Below are positions 10,393-54,465 of a stretch of DNA of 64,000 bases, in pieces (within the stretch, counting starts at the first letter, position 1; every line of letters begins with the position of its first letter). Source of the stretch: the human T2T-CHM13v2.0 reference genome, Homo sapiens. Below the pieces are notes generated by a model. It searched no databases. It was not told the origin of the DNA and saw only the letters and a list, made by a program, of their open reading frames with translations. The stretch is taken from the NCBI RefSeq assembly GCF_009914755.1, contig NC_060937.1, one strand, 5' to 3'. The translations under genes were made by a program, and so were the position numbers.

Positions 10393-13224
10393 GAGGCTGA
10401 GGCTTCCAAAAGGAGGCCTGGAGACAATGGAATATGGTTTGTACTTCCTTCCCTCCTGCTGCTCCTTGCCATTGCCAAGAGTGGAAATACTGCTAAAGCA
10501 CCCAGCAAGTCATGGTGGGGAATGAATGAATCCCGTCTAAGACACTTGTTTTAATAACCCTAGGGAACAATTTAGTGTGCTAAATGTCATGGTAATTCTT
10601 ACATACACACTGATTTACTTTTTGCAGAGAGATTTCTATAAAAGTTTTGAGACTTCCCTATTATTCCCATAGTACAAAATTTCTCTGTACTCAGATTTTT
10701 CTGTTTCTGTTTTTTGTTGAATAGATTTCTATTTTAGGAAATAGTCTGTTATCTTTCTCTAGAGAAGCACTTCAATCGAAACATTTTGTTGGCTGAGAAT
10801 GTGCATTTTCCCCCTCTCAGGGGTAAGGATTTGCCTCATCTCATTGTCTAGCTTCCTGTTGAGAAGTGTGGTGTGTGTATTCACTTAAACTCTGATGTCA
10901 TATTGAAGCCCATTGGTGGGCAGTTTCAGCCAATCAGATGCTTCCTGGGTATCCAAGTAAGAAAGATATATAGTTCTGGAATAACAGGAAACTTCACATT
11001 TTTCACATCCTGTTATTCTGGGTTTTGTGACTTGCTGCCTTGCCACTATGAAGGTTAGTAGAAATTTATGTATGTATTTCTTTTTGTAGTATACAAAATT
11101 GACAAAATAAAAAATGACTTGAATTTTCAGAGCACTAAGATTAGATCTGTAGAGCTGAAAGACATTCAGATCTCCTATTTAAAAATGTTATGATGAAGAG
11201 AAATTTTATGTTTTGCATATAAGGAAGCTGAGGCCTATTTAATTCCTTTTAAAAAATGCAGCTTAACCCGTATTTGTTATAGGTGGTTATGTCAGCCTAG
11301 ATGCTGCTCTCATTTGAGTTGGGATTTCTTCTTAAATAATAAATATTACAACAAATGTATTCTGTATGAAAGATGATTCTAAAGACTATCTGTTCTAAGG
11401 ACTGTTTTTTAAAGGAAGGATTTAGCTTCATGAAATCAGTTATATTTTGTGCCTTTTGTTAGAAATGGCATCGGTAAGCACATAGAATGCTTAGATGTGT
11501 TCACAGCTTTCCTTTTACGTTTTGTGGTTCCATCTGATATTTCCTTGTGAACTTTAAGAAAGTGACCTCTGGTTTTCAGCTCCTTTCTTGACTCTTTTAG
11601 TGATTTGGTGGGTTTTTCTCTTGAGGTAGTTTTTCAAAGTCTGGTTCTTCTTTATTTATGTTTAAACATCTCATGACTATTTTTACTTATTTGGAAAATT
11701 ATAGACAGAAGGCCTTTAGCTGCAGATGAATTTTGAATAATACAGCAGGACTTTTTCACATTTGGTGTCACTTTTCTTAGCTTCTCTTGGCGTGAGCTTC
11801 ATTACAGCAGCATGCGGTGCCTGCAGGGTGGGTGGCTGGTTGGATGCTGGTGCACGTCTCCATTCGGATGCCTTTTCACTGTGCACCGGCCCCTGTGCTG
11901 GGTGTTGGGAGATGTACAATCTGCCACTGCAGATTTTTAGTCTAGGGAGGCCTGTAGACATCCACCATCAAACTATCATGACACGTGTTCTGGGGGAGCC
12001 TGGCTGGGGACCTGACCGGGTGTGGTGGGGGCAGCCAGGCTGTCAAGGCAGGGCTGTGTCAGGAAGCAAGATGAATAAGGATTAGCCAGGAAAGGGAAGG
12101 GACCGAAGGCAGGAAGAGGAAGAAGTGGGGCTTCTGGCAGGGTCTGCTAGAGGTGTGGGGAGAGGGCAGGACTGACAGGAGGAGACGACAGCCCTGGAGA
12201 GAAGGTGGGGCCCTTGTCCACTGATGCTTATTTCCGGTAATCTCAGTTAGAACATATGGCAACAGGATACACGTTTTGGTTTTTAAATGTATCTTTCTGT
12301 TATTGGCACCTCTGAAAGAATTTTTTTCTTAATTTTTCTGGAACATAGTTGTGGACGATTTGACTGTTTATCTTTGCTTGAGGTTATTTGGTGATCAGAA
12401 GCCATATGTAGTCTTTGGGCAGTATCTGAGATGAGAGCTCTGTTTGTTTTGACATGGCTGTGTGTGTGCACACGCGTTCTAGACACTAGTTGCCACATAC
12501 CTAGGCAAACCAATGTGCTTTACCTTTCCAAGCTCCAGGATGGTGGTGGGAAGTGCCTGCCAGTGGCAATGTGACCAGCTCCATCGTGGTCCCAGGGCTC
12601 TAGATAGCCCTGGACTGGAGGGGATGCGGTTGTGGGCTTGCCTGGTTCTGGCCTCAGAGCTCTGAGGGTGGTGGTCTCTTGTCCCTGCCCCTTTCCTATC
12701 TGGGATCTGCTTCTCCTGTCTGTCCTCCTTTTACCCTCACATCCACTCTGCTCTCTGATGTCCGCATTTTCTTTTGCTGCTGTTAGCTTTGGAATCGACT
12801 GTCATTTTCCCTTATTTTCTGTGGCTAGGAAAGAACATCTGTAGCACGCCTTGCCTGGGGCCTCTGTGTTAATCTAAGGAGAGGAGGATTGCGCAAGCAC
12901 CGTGCTTGCTTGCTGAATGCCAGCAGCCCACCCCCCCACCCCGCCCCGCCCCCGTGAATGAGCTCACACTCCAGAGGGGCAGGGGCGGGTGTTGGGTAGG
13001 GAATTGGCCTAATGCCGAGGGGGGACCCTGCACCTAAGTAGGAGAATTTTGATTGGGTTCTTACCTCAGGACTGAGAGACTGAGCGTGCTGGTCTCCCTG
13101 TCGCAGGTTGTGCGGTCTCCTTAGGATTTCAGGCTGAGCATCGTCGCGTTGCTGGGAGAACTTAGTTCATCCTGCACCCAACATAAGACTCTACTAATTT
13201 TGCTTGTTTAATTTTTCCTTTCAG

Positions 13225-13309
13225 ACGTTTGATGCAAATGATTTGTATCAGGGGCAGAATTTTAACAAGGTCCTCAGTTCCTTAGTGACTCTAAATAAAG
13301 TAACAGCAG
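13225..13309 (+). CDS. ARHGEF7: ARHGEF7 exon, C-terminal part of CH domain (TFDANDLYQGQNFNKVLSSLVTLNKVTA)
   Basis: ttttcctttcag acceptor, CAG|gtaaga donor; 85 nt, phase 0 to 1; recognisable PIX CH sequence. Confidence 0.95.
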
Positions 13310-16303: not shown

Positions 16304-17807
16304 TGATTGGCAAACAGTAAGACAACTGCAGCAGCCACAGTTACTGTGGACATTCTTGGGAAAATTGTCATTGTCTTTCTGCTTCTGTCTCTTAAAATCA
16401 TATGTGTTCTCAAGGCATTTAGTTGACTGTAACTGGCCTTTTAATTGGATAGAAGAAAGCTTGGTGATGGGGAAGTACAGAATGTCTTCAGGATGGCCCT
16501 CCTTGTATGAGAATTTCCTGGAAGGCTGTGGCCAGCAGAGCACTGCAGACCATGGCCGGGAGCCCTGTAGAATTTGCTGGAAATGCCCTTTTAGCTGGTT
16601 TTGTGCTGCGGGTTGCCTGAGACCCCTGTGTTCTCAAGCAGAATGTGCTCTATAGAGATTACTCGTAACCTGCCCTCAGCAGGTCCTGGGAAGTGTAGGG
16701 TGAGGGGGTGACCTGAGAAGAATTTAAGATCGTTGGAGTAGCAAGCCCCCATCTGTGGGGTCAGGCAGGTGGCGTGAAGGGAGGAGCTGGATGGAAGGGC
16801 ATGGGTGCTGGGTCCTCTCAGGACAGCCCCTGCCCAGCTCTGAGCCAGCTTTACCTGATGGGATATAGACCTGGTGTGGCCACATCCTAAATGTGTCAAG
16901 AGCAGTGGGGAATCTGGGTTTTTGGTGATACCTTCAGACTTTTCGATGTTGACCGTTTAATTCAGAATTTTATAAGATACGTGCAAGCCAATCCAAACAC
17001 CTGGGAGGAAGCTGGGACCTGGAGACTTAGGGTTGCTTTCATGGAAGCCTCCCTGGAGTTTAGGACATGGCCGGGCACGTGCCTCTCAGAACAGCGATTT
17101 TCCCAGCAAAGTTTTTCACAGCCTCATTCTCTCTTTTTTTTAATTGAGTCACTTTTAAGAATAAATTGCTATTATTTATTTGTTGGATGGCCTGTGTGGA
17201 GTGTCTTATGAAGGGAGATCCAGAGAACAGAACTAAGCCTCTTACTGTCTGTTTACTTTGATTCTGTCAGCAACTTCATGAGGTGAGTAGAGCCTGTGCT
17301 GCCTTAGTGTTGGGGAAATAATCCTCACAAGGTTCTCTCTGGCTGAAAAATACACTGGATTTTCTCTTTTAAATAAGAGTCTTTTCCTTCTGTTGCTTAT
17401 TGCATGACACATCGTCCTGGAAAAGTGGGCATGTGGTGGTGATGCTTTGGAGAATCAGTACTTGGTTGTTCTCCGCTCCATAATCAAATTTGAGAGGCTT
17501 TTTTTTCCAGGTGAAGGGAAAATCTTTAAAAGTTATAATACATTTCACAAACTTTTGAAAATTATATTAGAGAAGAACTGATTAATAGTTATCTCCAGAT
17601 AATTTCTGGAAAGGTAGTTGGGGAATGAATGCAAGTCATTTATGTAGCAAATAATTTGTTCTTTGTTTTCTGCATAAATGGGCTGCTTTGTTGTGGTCTT
17701 TTGGTGTGTCCCTCTGTGCTGCCCTAGTTTTAAAGTCTAGTGTGTAGTGTGGGTGCGTGGTATCAGGCGCTCTCAGCTCTCTTTTTCTGTGTGCATGCTC
17801 TTTGCAG

Positions 17808-25615: not shown

Positions 25616-25817
25616 GACATGACCGATAATAGCAACAATCAACTGGTAGTAAGAGCAAAGTTTAACTTCCAGCAGACCAATGAGGACGAGCTTTCCTTCT
25701 CAAAAGGAGACGTCATCCATGTCACCCGTGTGGAAGAGGGAGGCTGGTGGGAGGGCACACTCAACGGCCGGACCGGCTGGTTCCCCAGCAACTACGTGCG
25801 CGAGGTCAAGGCCAGCG
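25616..25817 (+). CDS. ARHGEF7: ARHGEF7 SH3-domain exon; ATG 25619 is the start of short beta-PIX isoforms (MTDNSNNQ...)
   Basis: cccttttag acceptor, GCG|gtaagt donor; [51 protein letters not shown]; 202 nt, phase 0 to 1. Confidence 0.98.
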
Positions 25818-41049: not shown

Positions 41050-41138
41050 AGAAGCCTGTGTCTCCCAAATCAGGAACACTGAAGAGCCCTCCCAAAGGAT
41101 TTGATACGACTGCCATAAACAAAAGCTATTACAATGTG
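41050..41138 (+). CDS. ARHGEF7: ARHGEF7 exon, SH3-DH linker (EKPVSPKSGTLKSPPKGFDTTAINKSYYNV)
   Basis: tttcatttcag acceptor, GTG|gtgagt donor; 89 nt, phase 1 to 0. Confidence 0.95.
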
Positions 41139-44100
41139 GTGAGTAATTGCAGAACATTTTTAAACTAACTGGTTTTTGACTGCCTGTAAAACTCAGCAAT
41201 GTAGAATGTAGTGTAAAGTACCTAGAATAGGAAGAAGGAAATAAAGTTCATTCATCTGCCACACAAATGTAACCACCATTAAGGTTTTGGTCTGTTTCCT
41301 TCTAATCTCTGTATTTTTGTAATTGTATGTTTTTGTTTTAATATCATGTATATGGAAATGTCCCTTGCTCTTGTCCCGTAACATAGTAATGTGCGTGTTT
41401 CCCCATGCCATAGCCAGTCTTCAAAAATGATATTTGAAAAAATGTATAATGTGATTTGAAAATTTTATATGCATTGAGTGCCATTCTGTTTGTATTCAGA
41501 GTAGACTGTAAGTACTTTAGACATAAGGCTTCTAATTTATTTTTTCTCTTAATATAGTGTTTCCCAGGATTGATGTGTACATATCACATGGCGTAGAATT
41601 AGGGGAGCATGTCTAAACGCTATACGTGTTAAAGACAGGTGTTTCTGGATCCTAAAATTTGCTGCTTAATATGTTCAGTATGTGATACTAAATCTGTGTA
41701 GTCTAATGCTATTAAATCAAATGTATAGTCTCATGGTACTAAATCTGTGTCGTCTAAACCTTCTTTGTACCTAAGCTTATGTAGCAATTGCATGTTCTAT
41801 AGAAATGGAAAATAATTTATTTTAAAGAATTTATTAAAATTTTAAACCACTCAACATGATAACAACAAAGTAAACCCTCTAAACATGTGTATGTTTTGAA
41901 TTCTGGGGAAAATGCGCATTTGTTTTGTTATTTCTTCCCCTACTCCCAATCTTCATTTTCTTCTTGAGTAGATATAACTATGAACCCACGAGACCTTTGA
42001 ATTGTTGGTGTGAAACAGCAGTTGATTGGTGTTTTTGTGCAGCAGTCATTTTCTTGTGAGCATTTCATTTTCTGCACCTGTGTTGGGAAACGGTGAAAAG
42101 GTGTGGTGCAATGGAGTCTGAGCAGCTCCACCACGTGGAGCTGTGCCACCGTCTTGTGCTGCGGGGCTTGCACTCTCAGCTTCCTCCTGAGTGCCCACCT
42201 TCCATCTGCCCCAGCATCGTACTGCAGGACAGACTGGCCTGGGGACCCACTCATTAATAACTGTTTATTGGGCGCCTGCTCTGTGCAGCTCTGTTAAAGG
42301 CACCAGGATGCACAGTGAACAGAATGGCGGGTGCCTCTCCCCTCGCTGAGCTCGCACTTGGGTATGGGAACACAATGGTCTTTTGTTGCCTCCATTTTTA
42401 CTGCTTCTTTTTCATAATTTGACATCTGTGCACCTTCTTGTGAGCAGGTCTCCTCATGCATCATGCCACTTCTCTTACATTAGTGGCAATCTTTGACTTA
42501 TTTTTCCTTGTATTTGGTCAACTCCGGATCCTTTTCTGCCTTGGAAACCCTTTTCTTTTGCTTCCCCTCTTTCTTCCCTTTTTTTCATTCATCTTCATTT
42601 GGCTGCTTGGACTCTGCCTTCCATCTCAACTTTGTGGACTTTGAGAAGATCAGACTCCTTTTAGCGCGTCGTGTGGCCCACATTACCCGAGACACCTGCT
42701 TTCTGTCATCTCTCCTAGTGCTCTGCATCGCCTTCATCCCTTGGCCTGTTGGGCATTTACTCCCAGGATTTGGCTCTACTAACCCATTCGCTTTTTAGTG
42801 TGTAATGTAGCTTATGTGTAGTTTTGTGTACGTAGCTACAGAGACAGTAGATGGGTTTTATGGGTTGTAGGAAAACTTGAGTTTTAACTCCTGGAGCTGC
42901 CCTTTCCTCTTGCATTCTTGTATAAGACACTGCTTTTTTGGGGAAGGCTTCATGTGGTGAATAACACAGCCACAATCCACAGTGAGATTCCAAAGGGTGT
43001 GTTACCTTCTGTTATGGTTCAGGTCCAGATAATTCTGTTAGAAAAAGTGGTCAGCAGTGTTTAAATTGGTGCCAAGGGCATTCTTTAGTTTCTCCATTAA
43101 TCTTGCTTTCATTAGGCACTTTATAAAACCAGGCAACCATGCTTTTTTAGAAATCCTGGTGGGTTTTTCTTTGCATTATATATTCTGTAATACTTCTCAG
43201 ATTGAAGCATAGTCGATACCTTTTTCGTTTTCCTTCTCTAACTGTCCTTTTACAGAGAGAATAGCCTGGGTATTATAAGTGCTCTTTTCTTCAAATCAGC
43301 CAACTCTTTCATACAGAATGATGGAAAACACCTTGACCTCAAAATCACATCTAAATTGTTTTCTATATAAAGCTGCATTTATAAATAGCACATGGTAAAA
43401 TTACAGTTGTTATAGAAATAAACTCATAGAATTCATAGAGAATTGTCTTTTGATGTAGTACTCTCATTTTACAGCAGAGAAAACAGAAGCTAAATGCCTT
43501 GTCCAAGGTTATACACTGGTTACTAAGCCAGGAATCAATTTCAGCTTTCCTTAATTTTATATTTGTAAATTGTACATAAAAATAGAGAACAGAATACAAC
43601 ACAGAACAAAACATGATAGATAATGTGTTAGGCATTTCTACACCCCCTTTTGTAGTTTCGTTTTCACAGAAAACTATAAGGTCTGGGTGTTTTTAACCTC
43701 ACTGAAAGTTGAAAACTTACTAAAGGGTAAGACTGGTGTGGACCAATGGTGTTAAGGAAATTTACATGAATGACTTGTCTTAACTTGGGATCAGTATAAT
43801 GGAGTTGAGAGAAGAGTATTCCATGCGAAAGTACCAACATTTTGAAATTAAGAGACAATGAGACAGGTATGAATGGGATGGATATGTGTTTTCCTGCTAT
43901 TGTATAATAGTTAAGATGAACACCAAAAAGACACTGGAAAGTAAAACTCGTAGTAATTTATGTCTGTTATTATGAACCATTCAGTAACTATTTCTCTCTC
44001 CTCTCCTTCTGGGACTCCTGTGGTGCAATTAGTCAAATATAGACAATATTTGAGCCATTGTCTTCATACTGTCCTTTAATTTTTTAAACATAGTTTCCTT

Positions 44101-44532
44101 TAGTTCTTTGGACATATTTATAACAGCTGCTTTGAAACCTTTATCTCCTAAGTCCACTATCTGTGCCCCCTAGAGACAGTTTCCATTGACTGCTTCTTTT
44201 TTTCTTGTGTGCGTGTGTGTGTGGTCACACTTTCTTGCATGTCCTATGATTTTTTAAATTGAAAACTGGATATCTTAGACCTATTTTAGCAGCTCTGGAT
44301 GCTTGAAATCCACCTCCCCTGGGATATACTGTTGCTGTTGCTGTGTCTTGCTCAGTGACTCACCTAGAGCACTTCTGTAGTTTATCTTCCCATAGTCACT
44401 GATGTCTATTTTTATTTTTTTATTCTTGTTTTTATTTTTAATTCTGTCTTTCTAGGATTCACTTTTGGGTAGCATAATTTAGTATTCAGCCAAAGATTCA
44501 CCAAAGATTGTGCTTAAACACCTTTAACAGTT

Positions 44533-44822
44533 CAGGTATTACGGCTCACACCTGTAATCCCAACACTTTGGGAGGCCTAGTAGGGAGGATTGCTTGAGGC
44601 TAGGAGTTTGACACCAGCCTGGGCAGCATAACAAGACCATGTCTCTAGAAAAAACCAAAATTACCTGGGCTGGGTGGCAAATGCCTGTAGTCTTAGCTAC
44701 TCGGGAGGCTGAGGTGGGAGGATTGCTTGAGCCCTGGAGTTTGAGGCTGCAGTAAGCTATGATTGCACCACTGCACTTCCAGCCTGAGCTACAGAACAAG
44801 ATTGTGTCCCTAAAAAACCAAA
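44533..44822 (+). mobile_element. AluJ inserted in an old L1 fragment
   Basis: gaggattgcttgag J-type motifs; degenerate TSD aaacacctttaacagt / aaacacctctgacggt. Confidence 0.88.
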
Positions 44823-46708
44823 AAACACCTCTGACGGTGAGGTTTCACTCTTGCCAGTGATCTGTATGGGGTTGGGGAATGCATTCAAAGAGAGGGCTGG
44901 GGAGGAGCATGACTTTTTAAAAGTTAAAGGCAGTGGATGAAATGACAAAGGAAAAGATAAATCTTTTAGGCTACCTAATGAGAGTTTAATATATTCCTTG
45001 CCTCAAACAGTATAAGCCAGATAACAAGTTAATTGGAATGTTATTTGCATCAGGTATAATACAAGGTTATCCTTAATGTCTGAAGAGCTCATTAAGACAA
45101 ATACATGAAGATTAATAGACAAATGGGAAAGGTTGTGAACAATTTAAAAAATGGTAAACACTAAGGCTTTGAAAAAAAATAGTTAAACTCACCATAAAAA
45201 TTTTAATAGGCATATTTTCTGTAATCAGTGAGCAGAGATTTAAAGAGAGAATCTTTAGTTCTAATGGTGGAAATGTAAATCCATACAGAGTTTCTCAAAA
45301 GTAATATGGCAGTTATATATAGAATTCTGGAAGTGATCAAGTTCTTTAATTTAGGGCTTTCTCTTTAATTTCTAAATTTCTTGAAATCCATTCCAGAGAA
45401 TTAACCTGAAATATATTCAAAGATGCTTGTGTAAAGGCATTTTCAGAGGATTATTTGTTATAGTAATAAATTGCAAGCAACCCAAAATAAACAGTATGAG
45501 ATGAACAGTACCAGAATGATTAAGCGATCAGTGGTTTGTCCATTTGTAGTTACTAAAGTGTACATGAGGCTTTAAAAATACAAAAAACATATATTTTCAT
45601 GTTAAGTGCAATAACAGAATATGAAATTACACAGGTGATATGATCTCATGGTATTACAAAGTTGACATAGAAGATAGAAGACATTGTGCTAGAGAATGGT
45701 TTCTTTCCAGTGGAGGAATTTTAGCTTCCCACTAATGTAAGGGATAGTGATTATGGGGGAAGTCTTTGGCACCACAGTCCAGAATGTGTTGGAGATAGAA
45801 ACGGGCCTCTGAGGCTAGGGAGGAAGCCAGCGTGGAACATGGCAGGCACACAGGCCTTGGGCTTGGAGAGTGACGGGGAAGGGAGAGGAAATCAAGATCT
45901 CTTAAATGCAGATCTTTTAATTTCAATTAGTTTTTGTGACACAGCCAGCCACTACTCTTGCCTCTATTTTCTCATGTACGTACTGTTTGAAATCAGTCTG
46001 TTAGCTGTGCTTAGGGTGCCCTTGTTGTGTAGGTAGTTCAGATAATTAAGATCCGGGCGGCTTGATGCAGTGGAAGGTGTACAGCCTTTTTGTTGAATCG
46101 TCCATGCTGCTTAGCCTGGGTGGCCAGGAGCTTTGGCCCTAGCTTCCTGAGCCCAGTTATCTCATTTGTAAAATGAGATTGGTAATGCTGGCCCTGACCT
46201 GGTAGTATTAAGTGGACTGGCAACTGGCCTTAAGGCCTCCAGCAAAGTGCTGGACCTTAGAGGTTTTTGTGTGTATTAAGAAGAGTATTTAAGAGCATTG
46301 GGAACAGAAGGCATCACTGAGGCCACCATACCATTCTGTTTGTAAACTGGAATCCCCGTAGATTTTGAGGGTGACCTGTGAAAGCTGTAGCCAAGGTGGC
46401 CTGATCATATAATTAAAAGAGACAGGTTTGTGACCTGATGTGCCCGAGCTTGGTGGATTTGACAGTGAAAGCACACTCGTTGCCCCCATGGCATGGTGAC
46501 TGGCATCTTTCCTGATGGGGATCAAAGGAAGGGGTTGGATGCCTAGGCTGGAGAGAATGATGGTCTGGAGTTGCCTCTCGGGGGGATGAGGAGCACCCCG
46601 CTCCGTCATTAGAGAATGAGGTTTCTTAAGTCGCTGACTGGGAAGACACAGTCCTTATGGCCTTCCCTGCTCAGCGATATACACTATGGTTTGATTTTTT
46701 AGGCTTTC

Positions 46709-47087
46709 TGTATTAGTCCGTTCTCACGCTGCTGTGAAGAAATACCCGAGACTGGGCAATTTATAAAGAAAAGAGGTTTAATTGACTCAGAGTTCCACAT
46801 GGCTGGGGAGGCTTCAGGAAACTTACAGTCATGGCGGAAGGCACCTCTTCACGAAGCAGTGGGAGAGAGAATGAGTGCCAACAGGGGAAATGCCAGATGC
46901 TTATAAAACCATCAGATCTTGTGAGAACTCACCATGAGAACAGCATAGGGGAACGCGCTGCGTGCCCCTGCTCCCCCACACCCCCGTGCCATGATTCAGT
47001 TACCTCCACCCTGTCCCGCCCTTGACACATGGGGATTATTACAATTCAGGGTGAGATTTGGGTGGGCCATAGAGCCAAACCATATCA
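46709..47087 (-). mobile_element. THE1 (C/D-like) MaLR solo LTR, TSD CTTTC
   Basis: tgtattagtccgttctcacgctgct ... gccaaaccatatca; CTTTC at 46704-46708 and 47088-47092. Confidence 0.93.
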
Positions 47088-49127
47088 CTTTCCCTGTTAT
47101 TTAGAGCATTATTATAATACTGTGAATATAATGTAATAGGTAGCATCACTCTTTCTAATCTGTAAGTGTATAAAACGGTTATGTATCCTTAGATGCCATC
47201 ACACACATCCACGGGCCTTTCCTGTGCTCCAGAGAAGCCGCACACCTGTCTTTTCCTCCCTGCTCCTTTAGTTTGCGATGGCCTTCAGATGCCAGGCCAA
47301 GGAGGAAAACCTGAGCCTCCTGGTGACAGGGTGTCTTCGGTCTCCATCCATCAGCAGTGACCCTAAACCCTGGCGTTGCTTCGTCTCTTCATCTTCTGCT
47401 TTGCCCTTGGCTTTTCTCCACCTCAATGAAGATTTCTGTTAAATCTTTTGACTCCTGAAGTCTCTGCTTGGGGCCCGTAGGTGGAGATGGTTAATGATGA
47501 GGGGCCCTGAGGTATCAGGGAGGGTGTGCAGCTTGTGGGATCCCCTCTTTTCCTGGGCGGCGAGGTGCCTGCTGGCTTCTTTCACACCTGGCTCCCATTG
47601 TTTTTCATGGGATTTCCTTGCTGTATCTGGACTAAGATGATACAGATGAAGGTTGTCAGGTAGGCACTAGTGGAATGCTGACACGGAGAGGAGCTCAGTG
47701 TTTGGGAGGATTGAGTGACTTAATTGCAAGAAAGCCTGTCTTGTGAAATAATTACCTCCTGACTGAAGGAGTCATTTAAGAAGCAGCTCCAAGTAAGACT
47801 CTACATTGGGCTGGAAGGTCGAAGGGTGACTGGCTAGATGCCTTCCTACTATAAGCCAATGACTGGCACTCTTGAGTAACCATTATAACCTCGTAAAACC
47901 CCTTTTTGTGAAAAAGGGAAACAGACCGATAGACTTGTCCAGCTGCAGACAGTCAGTGGTGGAGCGCAGCTGGGAGCCCAGGTCCACGTGGCTGCAGAGG
48001 CCGGCTCTACCTGTCGCCATGCTGCTGTGCAGGTGCCATTGGTGGTGTCTGCTTCCCCCTGTGTGCTGGAGGCTTTGCAGGAGCCATTGCCTATAAACCT
48101 TTAACATTTAGGAGAAACATACCCCAAGACCTGTGAATCTCCAAATTTAAAAGTAATAGAATAACATTTATTTCAAAAGATACAGCATCATAAAAGCATT
48201 TATGTGGTCTCTCCAAACTTTTTTTGAGAACTAACGTTCCGAGGTATTGGTAAGGACCAGCAGTGCTAACACACCACATTAAATCAGCAACCGTGTGGTC
48301 GGGGAGCCACTGACTGCCTCATGTCATTGTGACCCGTAGAGGAGCCAGCAGGAGCTTCTGGGATTTCTTGTCAACACTCCTTCCTCCTCCTCCTCCTCCT
48401 TTCCGTGGAGTCAGATGTTTATTACAGGCCACATTGTGTGGTGAACTACTGTCTTGTAATGTACTTTTTGAAAATTTACTTGAAGTGTAAATAGACTGGA
48501 ATGGAGAACATTAAATGATGATCTTGTTTCTCTGTAGCAGTGGACAGGGAGGGGCTGATTAGGTAGGGTGGAGGTAGATTTGGAATAATTGTGCCACTTT
48601 TTGGTTTTTCTTCTTGGACTTATACATTAGGATTGGGATATGGAAATACAGTTGTATGATGATAAAAATCTTTTATACAGATGAAACAAAAAAAATTAAT
48701 GTTCTTTGTTCTCTTATGTAAATCAGTTATTTGTTTTTAAAGGCTGTTGATGACATAAACATATAAAACACCTACCGAGATTGGCAGTGGAAGTTGTAAC
48801 CCATTTGTAAAATCAGAAATGCTAAGTACTCCTTTAATGATGCAACGAATAAAGTGTCTGTGTCTGCGAGGCACAGCAGTGAGTCCTCTTTGTTTTGCTG
48901 TGCTCTGAGGCGGGCAGCATAGGGATTGAGTGGCACCAGTGTTTGACTGCACTTGCCTCTCCATGCCTCGTGACCCCCGGGAAGCTGGCACTGGCTGAGC
49001 TCAGCTCTGTGGGCCTTTCTTCAGCACTGTGGGTCGTAAAAGCTGCCTTTTCTTTGAAAACTGCCTGCGTCCTCTGGGTTCCCAGCGTTGGTGGGATGGA
49101 GCTGTGGCGTCCAGGCTGTGAGGTCTC

Positions 49128-49181
49128 ATGGGGTCCTGCAGCAGCCAGAGCGTGCAGAAGACGAGGAGGGGAAGAAAGGTG
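49128..49181 (+). CDS. ARHGEF7: Candidate alternative first coding exon of ARHGEF7 (MGSCSSQSVQKTRRGRKV)
   Basis: ATG 49128, 18 codons ending exactly at GTG|gtaagt (phase 0), matching the phase-0 exon at 51717; no transcript evidence available here. Confidence 0.55.
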
Positions 49182-51716
49182 GTAAGTGGCACCCCCGGCT
49201 GCGCCCCGAGGTCAGGAAGGCCAGCAACCTCCTGGCAGAGGGAGTGGGCACCCCAGCTGGAGTCAGGGAGCCAGGCCTGGCTGTGTGTTTGAGGAAAAGT
49301 TAAGTGTAACTTGCATTGTTTGGTTGGGAGTAATACAGGAATTGTGTTTAGCACCCTATTTGAAAATAGTGTTTAAGACTATTTGTTGAATTAACCAACT
49401 TAACTATTTTAACAAATGTAGCTTTTTGGCAGAGGGCTCTTTCAAGTAGTTTTTGGTGCTTATGGGAAGCTTTCATTTCTACAACCAGCGCTTAGTGCTG
49501 TGACGGACAAAAGGTCATTGTATTTTATTCTTCTCATATTCGTGCTAGTGATAGTTTCTAGTGGCTGCTTTCTTATCTCACATAGGAACATTTTTCTGTT
49601 TGAAAATAAGTATATAGGTCTTCAGGTGTGCAGTGAGCAGTATTGGTAAGTTGGTATCCAATATTTGTAATTAGGAAGCTAAATCATATTTCCTATCTTT
49701 AACATTGAAAAGGACTTTTCTGATACGTCTGTGACAGATCTTATTTCATCTTATTTAGCTCAAGATCTCATTATGCTTGGCTGGCTTCCCCCGTTGTTCT
49801 GGAGGACAGGCCTGGTTTCGAGTAGCGTCTCTGGGGTGTGGTGGCTGGCATCACGGTTTACCTCTGCTCACCAGACCTTTGACATTTGTGTTCGACGGGA
49901 ATTTCGTAGAAGGAAGACATTGTGGTTGTGGGGTCAGCATTTCCCATGAAGAGCCAGCTCCCTGCAGGGCCCCTCGCTCTGGCTCTCCCACGGTCGTCTC
50001 CCTTGAATAGATCCCTTCAGGGATGAGCCTGAGTTCCTTGTCACCAGTGGAAGAGCCTCTGTTTTTTTTCGCCCAAGTAGTTTAGTAAGTGATTTAATCA
50101 GATTTGCATTTACTCAGGAATGACTGTATTCCTTTCTCAGAGTTTACAGTCAACAGTAGGCAAACAGAGTAACAACCCGGGTTGTCTTTACTAAGGCTGA
50201 AATTTAAATTTAACTTGATGACTTTTTTCTTAAATGTTTAAATTTACATTTGGATTATCAAAAATGATGGGGACAGACTGAGCATGTTTAATATCTTTAT
50301 TACTTCTGTACAATTTCTTTTGTATGAATAAGTGAGAATGTATTGTTAGCTCTGGGAGACAAATAGCACATCTTGATGCATGTACTAGATGCGCAGAAAA
50401 TACGTGTAATGTGATTTCCTGATTTAAAAAGCACTAGCTCTGTAACAGACTCGGGTGAAAAAGAATGGAGGCAGGGATTCCACTTTCTTCACTTACGTCA
50501 GGTCCTTCAGGATCCTCAGCGTGCTCCTCAGTCTCATGCCAAAGAAGACAGTGTGGTGCGGTGCAGTGGCAGGAGGACCTGGGGCCGCTGTCTGGCTCTG
50601 CTTTTCTCAGCTGTTTGAGTTGGGAGAAGTCAGCTTCTCTAAGAGGAAAAGTTTTGTGTGCAGAGCCCCTTGCTCGGTGCCAGGAGTGCGAGGAGCACCT
50701 GCAGTTCACATCCAGGTGCCTTCTCGTCCCACCCTGGGCTGGGCCTTTGCTGCAGTGATAGCTGGTGGAAAGCATTCCTACTTGGTTTCATCAGTTTTGC
50801 ACTTTATATTTATCTGTCAGTTTTTAAGACTTAAATTATTTTGGCTAAATTTGCTACACTAATACAGGGTATTGGGAAACATTTTAATTTTAAGGTTAAT
50901 TTATAATTATTCTGCTATCTTTAAATGAAGTAGTAAAGATTGTTAACATTGATAAACCTTTAGTTTTTAATAAATGTGGTAATAAGGTGTCTGAGACTGT
51001 CATATTCACTAGGGAAAGTCTGTAGTTCCCAGAAATTGATTTCAATTTTTAGATGCAATCTAAAGAGTAAACTGTTTTTTTAGTTGAGAGTAATATTACA
51101 TATGTTAAAATACATAGATTTCAAAGGCACAGTCCAGTGAGCTTTTACAATGTATATATCTGTTGTAACCGCTACCCAAATCAAAATACAGAACCTATGT
51201 ATCACCTTAGACATTTACGTCATTCTCCTTTCCTTGTTGTCCACGCCCCCATCCTACCCTTCACCTCTTCTCTGATTTCTGTCACCATAGATTAGTTTTG
51301 TCATCTCTTAAACTTAATACAAATGGGATGATGCAGGATGTCCTTTTGGGAATGGCTTCTTTTGCACCACACAGTGTCGTAGAGATTGATCTGTTTGTCC
51401 ATGCAGTTGTGATTCTTGGCGGCTTCTCCTTTTTATCTAAACAGACATGGCATCTGATGATGGAATTCATGCTAGGTATACCTGTCAGATACGGTTGGCA
51501 GTAAGATAAAGTCAGTTGTATGGCCTTAGTAATAATTCATTACATGGGTTTAACAGTCAATAATTGCAAAGAATGATGATGATACTCAACACTTTAGTAT
51601 TACATAGAAGTAACAGTGTGAATTGAACAATGGCGATGAACTGTCCAAAGTGTATAAATCTTAGTGTCAAATAGCAATTGAAATGTCAAATAACACTTAT
51701 TCATCATTTATTATAG

Positions 51717-51811
51717 GTGCTACAGAATATTTTAGAAACAGAAAATGAATATTCTAAAGAACTTCAGACTGTGCTTTCAACGTACCTACGGCCATTGCAG
51801 ACCAGTGAGAA
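51717..51811 (+). CDS. ARHGEF7: ARHGEF7 exon, start of DH domain ([32 protein letters not shown])
   Basis: ttatag acceptor, GAA|gtaagt donor; 95 nt, phase 0 to 2; DH CR1 motif ILETENEY. Confidence 0.96.
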
Positions 51812-52043: not shown

Positions 52044-52139
52044 GTTAAGTTCAGCAAACATTTCATATTTAATGGGAAATCTAGAAGAAATATGTTCTTT
52101 CCAGCAAATGCTCGTACAGTCTTTAGAAGAATGCACCAA
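52044..52139 (+). CDS. ARHGEF7: ARHGEF7 exon, DH domain (LSSANISYLMGNLEEICSFQQMLVQSLEECTK)
   Basis: ggctctag acceptor, CAA|gtaagt donor; 96 nt, phase 2 to 2; DH motif MGNLEEI. Confidence 0.96.
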
Positions 52140-53818: not shown

Positions 53819-54387
53819 TGTAACATGCTATGCTGATGAACTAGGGCTTTGAGGCTTTGTCACTTTTCCAAAATTTTCCTTTGGAGGGACAGAGGCATGT
53901 TCTGAATAATCAGCCATCAGTTTTTTTCTGTGTGACTATTTTATTTTCTTGGTTTACATCAGACATTAAAGGATATTTGTTAATTTCCTGCCAGGTGACT
54001 TAGAACAGTAGTGCACATGGAAGCTTTTAGGTTTCAGTAGTCTATCAGGTGAGGTTTCTTTACTTGTGGGTTTGATGAAGGTGACACATTTTATTTTTAA
54101 ATTATCTTTGATCTTTATTCATATAACCCCCAGAAAAGACTACAGTACATTATTTCCTTGGATTTCGGTTGGTCTCTGGTCTTCCCTTCAGCTTGTGCCT
54201 ATTTAGGTTTTGAACGTGGTGAGGGAGTGGCCTTCCTTCTGTGCCACTAGTTCTTGCAGTTCATGACAGTTTACCAACCATGATGAAAATACTTTGTTCC
54301 CTTACCTTTTTGGCTGGGCTTTGAGGTTTTGTCAAGGCACTTTATACTGGACTATCGATATGGCAAGGAAAGCTGAATGCCAGAGTA

Positions 54388-54465
54388 ACAGAATATTATT
54401 AGAAACCGTAAGTGAATATTCTATAGAACTTAAGACTGTACTTTCAACCCATCTGCAGGCCATTG
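54388..54465 (+). pseudogene. Degenerate partial duplicate of the ARHGEF7 DH exon 51717-51811
   Basis: Hand alignment to 51722-51797: 66 of 78 columns identical, two 1-nt insertions; LETVSEYSIELKTVLSTHL vs [19 protein letters not shown]. Confidence 0.85.

What the first reader, a model, noticed from the sequence alone, without database searches (positions are those of the whole stretch)
49128..49187. Hidden internal first exon encoding a Src-family-like lipidation signal for an SH3-less beta-PIX
Seen: ATG 49128 opens 18 codons, MGSCSSQSVQKTRRGRKV, ending exactly at a consensus GTG|GTAAGT donor in phase 0, the phase of the DH exon at 51717, giving [30 protein letters not shown]. It is too short for the ORF track. 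Established: MGxxxS (Gly2, Ser6) is the N-myristoyltransferase consensus, and an adjacent Cys (Cys4) and a polybasic patch (KTRRGRK) are the second membrane signals used by Src-family SH4 domains. Inference: an internal promoter yields a membrane-anchored Rac1/Cdc42 GEF lacking the CH domain and the PAK-binding SH3 domain. I cannot tell whether the exon is already annotated, but I know of no description of this lipidation motif in beta-PIX.
Basis: partly seen in the sequence, partly recalled or inferred. Interest (0 to 1): 0.9.

Follow-up and report, generated by a model that had tools for sequence, protein, structure and literature searches.

The report
Annotated ARHGEF7 first exon, lipidation-like start
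An already annotated alternative first exon inside the human beta-PIX (ARHGEF7) gene opens with 18 codons that look like a fatty-acid membrane anchor and would give a beta-PIX without its PAK-binding SH3 domain, but nothing here shows that the protein is made or lipidated.

Summary
ATG 49128 opens MGSCSSQSVQKTRRGRKV and ends at 49181 before GTAAGT. It is in phase with the DH exon at 51717.

The exon is not hidden. The hub's RefSeq table lists 49019-49181 as an exon of other ARHGEF7 transcripts. TT, not AG, precedes 49019, so it is a first exon. A transcript from it would lack the CH tail and the SH3 exon and keep the DH core.

The 18-mer fits a recalled N-myristoylation pattern and has Cys4 and five basic residues. 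Of 905 open ATG 18-mers in the window, 1 has all three features, and it is this one.

Against a working isoform:
- An out-of-frame ATG at 49096, in a stronger Kozak context, opens a 34-codon uORF across the main ATG.
- There is no CpG island.
- The one relative found keeps 17 of 18 residues but is as similar in non-coding flanks.
- ARHGEF6 has no counterpart within 20 kb.

No paper held the peptide, and no listed title or abstract concerned beta-PIX lipidation.

Verdict: a real, known exon with a plausible, untested lipidation hypothesis. Interest is moderate.

The parts
49019..49181 (+). Alternative first exon of ARHGEF7 (163 nt), already in RefSeq
   Evidence: The hub's RefSeq table lists it among 'exons of other transcripts'. 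Bases 49017-49018 are TT, not AG, so it has no acceptor and is a transcript start. It is 163 nt long. A DNA search of the genome with window 48950-49300 found one place only.
49128..49181 (+). 18-codon ORF start MGSCSSQSVQKTRRGRKV: Gly2, Ser3, Cys4, Ser6, then K11, R13, R14, R16, K17 and no acidic residue
   Evidence: It is the only one of 905 open ATG 18-mers in the window with the NMT pattern, a Cys at residues 3-6 and net basic charge of at least 4.
49182..49187 (+). Splice donor GTAAGT, phase 0
   Evidence: GTG|GTAAGTGGC.
49096..49098 (+). Upstream out-of-frame ATG in strong Kozak context (GGGATGG). It opens a uORF of 34 codons through the splice, or 29 codons unspliced, that overlaps the main ATG.
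   Evidence: context, frame, 34 codons ending in exon 51717. (49096-49185, 29 aa unspliced).
49119..49121 (+). In-frame TGA, which makes 49128 the first in-frame ATG of the exon
51717..51811 (+). First DH-domain exon, phase 0, preceded by a polypyrimidine-rich tract and AG. It is the next annotated exon downstream.
   Evidence: It matches 1by1_A residues 17-47 (E 7e-14) and Tiam1 1foe_A residues 18-43 (E 0.021).
25616..25817 (+). SH3-domain exon that the isoform would lack
   Evidence: the in-frame translation holds the SH3 sequence (VVRAKFNF...[10 protein letters not shown]).

Best explanation
Window 49019-49181 is a genuine, already annotated alternative first exon of ARHGEF7. It is driven by a CpG-poor promoter inside the intron between the linker exon (41050-41138) and the first DH exon (51717).

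Its second ATG (49128) opens 18 codons that splice in frame to the DH exon. The predicted product is a beta-PIX with no CH domain and no SH3 domain. It would therefore have no PAK docking through the SH3 domain (recalled beta-PIX biology). It keeps every exon from the DH exon onward, which I recall as the DH-PH, GIT-binding and coiled-coil parts.

If that ATG is used, the inferred chain of events is as follows:
1. Methionine aminopeptidase exposes Gly2.
2. NMT1/2 adds myristate co-translationally.
3. Cys4 is then palmitoylated.
4. The patch KTRRGRK binds acidic lipids.

This would hold the exchange factor on the inner face of membranes next to Rac1/Cdc42, as an SH4 segment does for Src-family kinases.

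Shown here: the sequence, the frame, the motif fit, and the domains lost and kept. Inferred: the promoter, the junction, the use of ATG 49128, both acylations and the localisation. Output is probably low, because ribosomes scanning from 49019 first meet a stronger out-of-frame ATG at 49096.
For: - The exon is in RefSeq (hub table) and has no acceptor AG.
- The ORF and donor are as described. The downstream exon is in phase 0.
- The SH3 and CH-tail exons lie upstream.
- The DH exon equals residues 17-47 of the solved PIX DH domain.
- Gly2, Ser3, Ser6 and Gln7 fit the recalled NMT pattern. The combination with Cys4 and net basic charge occurs in 1 of 905 open ATG 18-mers in the window.
- It is the only one of 6 pattern-fitting ORFs in the intron that ends at a good phase-0 donor.
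- ATG, Gly2, Cys4, Ser6 and the basic patch are kept in the one relative found, with V9M the only change.
- Precedent: a tissue-specific isoform that gains myristoylation through a unique N-terminus, sperm hexokinase HK1S (PMC4736023; title and abstract start seen in the listing).
Against: - ATG 49096 lies 32 nt upstream, out of frame, with G at -3 and G at +4. ATG 49128 has C at -3. The 34-codon uORF runs past the main ATG, so reinitiation at 49128 is excluded and only leaky scanning or a more downstream start site would give the protein.
- There is no CpG island (o/e 0.40 at 48750-49249) and no TATA-like hexamer in 48801-49130.
- Conservation is unproven. The single relative, P0002, is 17/18 identical in the ORF against 132/161 in the flanks, which carry stop codons in the human sequence. 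This is no sign of selection.
- No further relatives were found.
- The paralogue ARHGEF6 has no comparable MG exon in the 20 kb upstream of its DH exon: 0 of 6 pattern-fitting ORFs end at a phase-0 donor.
- No expression, junction, ribosome-profiling or proteomic data could be examined.
- The one myristoylation supplement I could search (1 file, PMC12858966) does not hold ARHGEF7 or the peptide.
Confidence: 0.5

Rival explanations
1. The exon and transcript are real, but they are a minor, evolutionarily young intronic start whose ORF is rarely translated. Ribosomes mostly use ATG 49096 and make a 34-residue uORF peptide that stops in the DH exon, far upstream of later exon junctions. The mRNA would then be a likely target of nonsense-mediated decay (inference). 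On this reading the lipidation-like 18-mer is a chance feature with no biological role.
For: - The uATG is in a stronger Kozak context and its uORF overlaps the main ATG.
- There is no CpG island or TATA-like hexamer.
- There is no excess conservation of the 18 codons over their flanks.
- There is no counterpart in ARHGEF6.
- No paper held the peptide.
Against: - The full triple signal is rare, 1 of 905.
- It sits exactly at the first in-frame ATG of an annotated exon, with a strong donor in the right phase.
- Leaky scanning past a uATG is common (established knowledge).
- The relative keeps every key residue.
Confidence: 0.38
2. The exon is a model-building artefact: intronic or enhancer-derived transcription that happens to use a strong donor. 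It would not be a true promoter of a protein-coding isoform.
For: - I could not see whether the supporting RefSeq transcript is curated or predicted. The hub says models can be wrong.
- There are no core-promoter features.
Against: - RefSeq lists the exon with exact boundaries that coincide with a perfect GTAAGT donor (hub table).
- The frame is compatible with the downstream coding sequence.
Confidence: 0.08
3. The protein is made but not acylated. The basic patch at residues 11-17 then acts as a different signal, for example a weak nuclear-localisation-like or phosphoinositide-binding patch.
For: Five K/R residues in seven positions.
Against: Gly2, Ser3 and Ser6 with no disfavoured residue make a good fit to the recalled NMT pattern. 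NMT acts co-translationally on such N-termini (established knowledge).
Confidence: 0.04

Closest known systems
SH4 membrane-targeting segment of Src-family kinases (recalled knowledge)
   Same: An N-terminal Met-Gly start with a small residue at position 6 for NMT, plus a nearby Cys and/or a basic cluster as the second membrane signal. All three are present in the 18-mer.
   Different: It is attached to a DH-PH exchange factor, not to the unique-SH3-SH2-kinase architecture. The Cys is at position 4. No acylation has been shown. It works like an SH4 segment at the motif level but is not a member of that family.
Described beta-PIX/ARHGEF7 isoforms: the CH-containing long form, and the classic form that starts at the Met in exon 25616-25817 (recalled). 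I recall the a, b, c and d variants as differing downstream of the SH3; beta-PIX-a, -b and -d appear in the listings.
   Same: Same gene and strand, and the same exons from the DH exon at 51717 onward (hub table).
   Different: All the isoforms I recall keep the SH3 domain. This one would start 3' of it, with a unique 18-residue N-terminus. I found no title or abstract about a natural SH3-less or lipidated beta-PIX (listings only).
Isoform-specific N-myristoylation through a unique N-terminus, such as sperm hexokinase HK1S (PMC4736023, listing)
   Same: A tissue-specific alternative N-terminus gives an otherwise soluble protein a fatty-acyl membrane anchor.
   Different: For HK1S the acylation is reported as tested, by title and abstract. 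Here it is only predicted.
Inflammation-regulated alternative first exon of mouse Arhgef7 (PMC8260223, passages read)
   Same: It shows that Arhgef7 uses alternative first exons in a regulated way.
   Different: It is a different exon. The paper's reverse primer maps to window 13272-13291 in exon 13225-13309, and primer F1 maps to 11011-11030 in alternative exon 10996-11053. Both are upstream of the SH3 exon.

Membership tests
NMT1/2 substrate (co-translational Gly2 myristoylation) | Gly directly after the initiator Met | tested here: met
   The ORF begins MG.
NMT1/2 substrate (co-translational Gly2 myristoylation) | Position 3 not charged, aromatic or Pro; position 6 small (S/T/A/G/C/N); position 7 not Pro. 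The pattern is recalled, not taken from a tool. | tested here: met
   Ser3, Ser6 and Gln7. The pattern is matched by 18 of 905 open ATG 18-mers in the window.
NMT1/2 substrate (co-translational Gly2 myristoylation) | The ATG is actually used for initiation | tested here: inconclusive
   It is the first in-frame ATG after TGA 49119, but it is preceded by the out-of-frame ATG 49096 in a stronger context, with an overlapping uORF.
NMT1/2 substrate (co-translational Gly2 myristoylation) | Myristate found on the protein | not testable with these tools
   The one supplement file I could search held neither ARHGEF7 nor the peptide. Paper reading closed.
SH4-type dual membrane signal | A second signal next to the myristoylation site: a palmitoylatable Cys and/or a basic cluster | tested here: met
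   Cys4; K11, R13, R14, R16 and K17; no Asp or Glu in the 18-mer. This combination occurs in 1 of 905.
Src-family kinase | SH4 followed by unique, SH3, SH2 and kinase domains | tested here: not met
   The 18-mer joins a DH-domain exon. The resemblance is limited to the membrane signal.
ARHGEF7/beta-PIX isoform | An exon of the gene, on the gene's strand, in frame with the downstream coding exons | tested here: met
   Hub RefSeq table, and the phase-0 match. The junction itself was not observable.
ARHGEF7/beta-PIX isoform | Catalytic DH core retained | tested here: met
   Exon 51717 aligns to residues 17-47 of the 209-residue solved PIX DH domain 1by1_A, and to the start of the Tiam1 DH chain, residues 18-43.
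Conserved coding exon | Key codons and the donor conserved beyond close relatives, with more constraint than the flanks | tested here: inconclusive
   One relative only: 17/18 identical in the ORF against 132/161 in the flanks. No others were found. The paralogue lacks a counterpart within 20 kb. No vertebrate genomes are held apart from this one.

The most novel reading that the evidence does not exclude
Some human tissue makes a doubly acylated, constitutively membrane-bound beta-PIX that cannot dock PAK. It keeps the GIT-binding and coiled-coil regions, so it would co-assemble with canonical beta-PIX and GIT. It would then either pin those complexes to the membrane or compete PAK out of them. 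That would be a natural, PAK-uncoupled Rac1/Cdc42 activator, possibly restricted to primates.
Probability: 0.25. Interest if true: 0.6.

Novelty: new member of a known kind. Interest (0 to 1): 0.38.

Why it matters
Beta-PIX is usually described as reaching membranes and adhesions through partners: PAK-Nck via its SH3 domain, and GIT-paxillin (recalled). A natural isoform with its own lipid anchor and no SH3 domain would separate exchange-factor activity from PAK scaffolding. It would mirror the lipid-tagged exchange-factor constructs used experimentally to switch on Rac at membranes (recalled). The idea is cheap to test. As it stands the exon itself is already annotated, and the lipidation is only a reading of the sequence motif.

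Tried and rejected
**Literature**
- The strings MGSCSSQ, MGSCSS and GSCSSQS occur in 0 papers. Main texts only were searched, not supplements.
- ARHGEF7 with 'myristoylation' gave 10 papers (9 listed). ARHGEF7 with 'myristoylated' gave 11 papers (10 listed). None is on the subject by title or abstract.
- ARHGEF7 with 'alternative promoter', 'SH3 domain' and 'isoform' gave 0 papers.
- betaPIX or beta-PIX with 'myristoyl' or 'palmitoyl' gave 31 papers, 25 listed. None concerns lipidation of beta-PIX by title or abstract.
- The search for 'lacking/lacks the SH3 domain' or 'SH3-less' was uninformative. All 25 listed papers held only the gene names.
- The eLife paper on alternative first exons (PMC8260223) was a promising lead, but its primers map to a different exon. 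I listed its supplements and did not open them.
- Paper reading closed, so the supplement tables of the myristoylome profiling paper PMC6593224 were not seen. They may bear on the claim.

**Relatives**
- The 20-aa query was too short.
- The 54-aa unspliced ORF found one relative among longer proteins and none of similar length.
- That relative used as a query found only itself.
- The database clusters at 90% identity, so annotated isoforms that differ only at the N-terminus would be hidden. Their absence therefore says nothing.

**Other checks**
- Paralogue: 20 kb upstream of the ARHGEF6 DH exon was negative. A more distant exon is not excluded.
- Repeat origin: a DNA search of the genome with window 48950-49300 found one place, so I rejected a high-copy repeat origin.
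- I did not fold or model the spliced isoform, because a joined sequence cannot be handed to those tools.

Full report
**1. The observation**

The window reads ATG at 49128, followed by GGG TCC TGC AGC AGC CAG AGC GTG CAG AAG ACG AGG AGG GGA AGA AAG GTG, then GTAAGT. The translation is MGSCSSQSVQKTRRGRKV, running on into the intron as VS.

Concatenating the six coding exons in the hub's table gives one open frame. In that frame exon 51717-51811 starts in phase 0 with [12 protein letters not shown], so the 18 codons join it in frame. The acceptor at 51716 is a T-rich tract followed by AG. The donor has G at -1 and a perfect GTAAGT. Positions -3 and -2 (G, T) depart from the usual consensus.

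An in-frame TGA at 49119 makes 49128 the first in-frame ATG. Left unspliced, the ORF is 54 aa, below the usual 60-aa cut-off.

**2. What the exon is**

The hub's RefSeq table lists 49019-49181 among 'exons of other transcripts' of ARHGEF7, ending exactly at this donor. So the exon is annotated and not hidden.

The two bases before 49019 are TT. There is no acceptor, so this is a transcript start and not a cassette exon. No other annotated exon lies between 49181 and 51717, so the expected partner is the DH exon. I could not observe the junction.

A 351-base stretch around the exon matched only its own place in the genome, so it is not an obvious high-copy repeat.

The surrounding 500 bases have GC 0.55 and CpG o/e 0.40, against 0.44 and 0.31 for the whole window. 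There is no TATA-like hexamer in 48801-49130. If a promoter is here, it is a CpG-poor one. I recall such promoters as mostly tissue-restricted.

**3. What the product would be**

The in-frame translations of the upstream exons show three things:
- the end of the CH region in 13225-13309
- the SH3 domain in 25616-25817
- a linker in 41050-41138 that ends SYYNV

All of these are skipped.

The exon at 51717 matches residues 17-47 of the 209-residue solved PIX DH domain (1by1_A, E 7e-14). It also matches the start of the Tiam1 DH chain (1foe_A residues 18-43, E 0.021). The conserved first helix of the DH domain is therefore retained.

The isoform would be the 18-mer followed by every exon from the DH exon onward. 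From memory, that is DH-PH, the GIT-binding region and the coiled coil.

**4. The lipidation reading**

The N-myristoylation pattern is recalled, not taken from a tool. It needs Gly2, an uncharged non-aromatic non-Pro residue at position 3, a small residue at position 6, and no Pro at position 7. The 18-mer passes with Ser3, Ser6 and Gln7.

It also has Cys4 and five K/R residues in positions 11-17, with no acidic residue. The window holds 905 ATGs, on both strands, followed by at least 18 open codons. Of these:
- 18 fit the pattern
- 3 of those have a Cys at residues 3-6
- 1 also has a net basic charge of at least 4, and it is this ORF

In the intron 41139-51716, 6 ATGGG ORFs fit the pattern. 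Only this one ends at a phase-0 donor with at least 5 of 7 consensus positions.

So the combination is rare, about one in a thousand ATGs. It was picked post hoc, though, from a scan of a very large amount of sequence, so rarity alone does not prove function.

The mechanism I commit to is conditional on translation. Met removal is followed by co-translational myristoylation of Gly2, then palmitoylation of Cys4, with electrostatic help from the basic patch. The result would be a membrane-resident exchange factor without PAK docking. Each of these steps is inferred.

**5. Evidence against, or missing**

(a) *The upstream ATG.* The exon has another ATG at 49096, 32 nt upstream and out of frame, in the context GGGATGG (G at -3, G at +4). 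The main ATG sits in CTCATGG (C at -3).
- From a start at 49019, scanning ribosomes meet 49096 first.
- Its ORF runs 34 codons through the splice and stops in the DH exon. Unspliced it is 29 codons.
- It overlaps the main ATG, so reinitiation cannot rescue 49128. Only leaky scanning, or start sites between 49097 and 49127, would give the protein.

(b) *Conservation.* The tools hold no other vertebrate genome.
- The protein database gave one relative, P0002. It is a 179-aa ORF call that is colinear with window 48837-49373 without gaps and 149/179 identical.
- It keeps ATG, Gly2, Cys4, Ser6 and the basic patch, with V9M the only change (17/18).
- The flanks, which in the human sequence hold five stop codons, are 132/161 identical. 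There is no measurable excess constraint.
- Two more searches found nothing further.

(c) *Paralogue.* The ARHGEF6 DH exon (70% identical) has 6 pattern-fitting MG ORFs in the 20 kb upstream. None ends at a good phase-0 donor.

(d) *Expression.* No expression, ribosome-profiling or proteomic data were available.

**6. What is in print**
- The peptide strings occur in no paper of the library.
- Papers that hold ARHGEF7 together with myristoylation or myristoylated number 10 and 11. None is about beta-PIX by title or abstract.
- The same holds for 25 listed of 31 papers with the beta-PIX names plus myristoyl or palmitoyl.
- A search for SH3-less forms was uninformative.
- One supplement file of a 2026 NMT paper held neither the gene nor the peptide.
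- The eLife study of inflammation-driven alternative first exons names Arhgef7 among its top novel events (passages). Its primers map to window 11011-11030 and 13272-13291, and the third primer has no match. That is a different first exon, upstream of the SH3.
- These searches cover open-access main texts only. They cannot show that sequence databases lack the isoform, and RefSeq evidently has the exon.

**7. Verdict**

The exon is real and known. The isoform's architecture follows from the gene structure. The lipidation signal is a good motif-level fit that I did not find discussed in print.

It belongs to a known kind, an alternative N-terminus that confers acylation. The sperm hexokinase isoform in the listing is a precedent.

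Production of the protein is doubtful because of the overlapping uORF, and conservation is untested. I put about 0.5 on the predicted-lipidated-isoform reading, conditional as stated. I put about 0.25 on a physiologically meaningful membrane-anchored, PAK-uncoupled beta-PIX.

Noticed in passing
window 54383-54460 (core 54399-54448): A partial, degenerate copy of the first DH exon lies in the downstream intron. Bases 54399-54448 are 88% identical, ungapped over 50 nt, to 51732-51781, 2667 nt upstream. The alignment extends further with a 1-nt insertion. It translates to ILLETVSEYSIELKTVLSTHLQA inside a 93-codon open frame. There is no acceptor in register and it is not in the hub's exon list. 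It looks like the remnant of an exon duplication.
   Followed up: partly
window 10996-11053 and 13225-13309: The mouse Arhgef7 alternative-first-exon event validated in LPS-treated macrophages (PMC8260223) maps here. Primer F1 matches 11011-11030 with 2 mismatches, and the reverse primer matches 13272-13291 with 3 mismatches. The annotated human alternative exon 10996-11053 may therefore be the counterpart of an inflammation-regulated start.
   Followed up: partly
protein P0002 against window 48837-49373: The only database relative is a 179-aa 'protein' that is open where the human sequence has five stops. At three of those five positions it has Trp. That would fit a gene caller reading TGA as Trp on a mammal-like contig. 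It looks like an artefactual ORF call and not a gene.
   Followed up: no
window 52106-52139 and 17271-17282: The hub table lists further short alternative exon starts in ARHGEF7, including one that begins inside the second DH exon. The gene seems to have many internal starts. I examined none of them.
   Followed up: no
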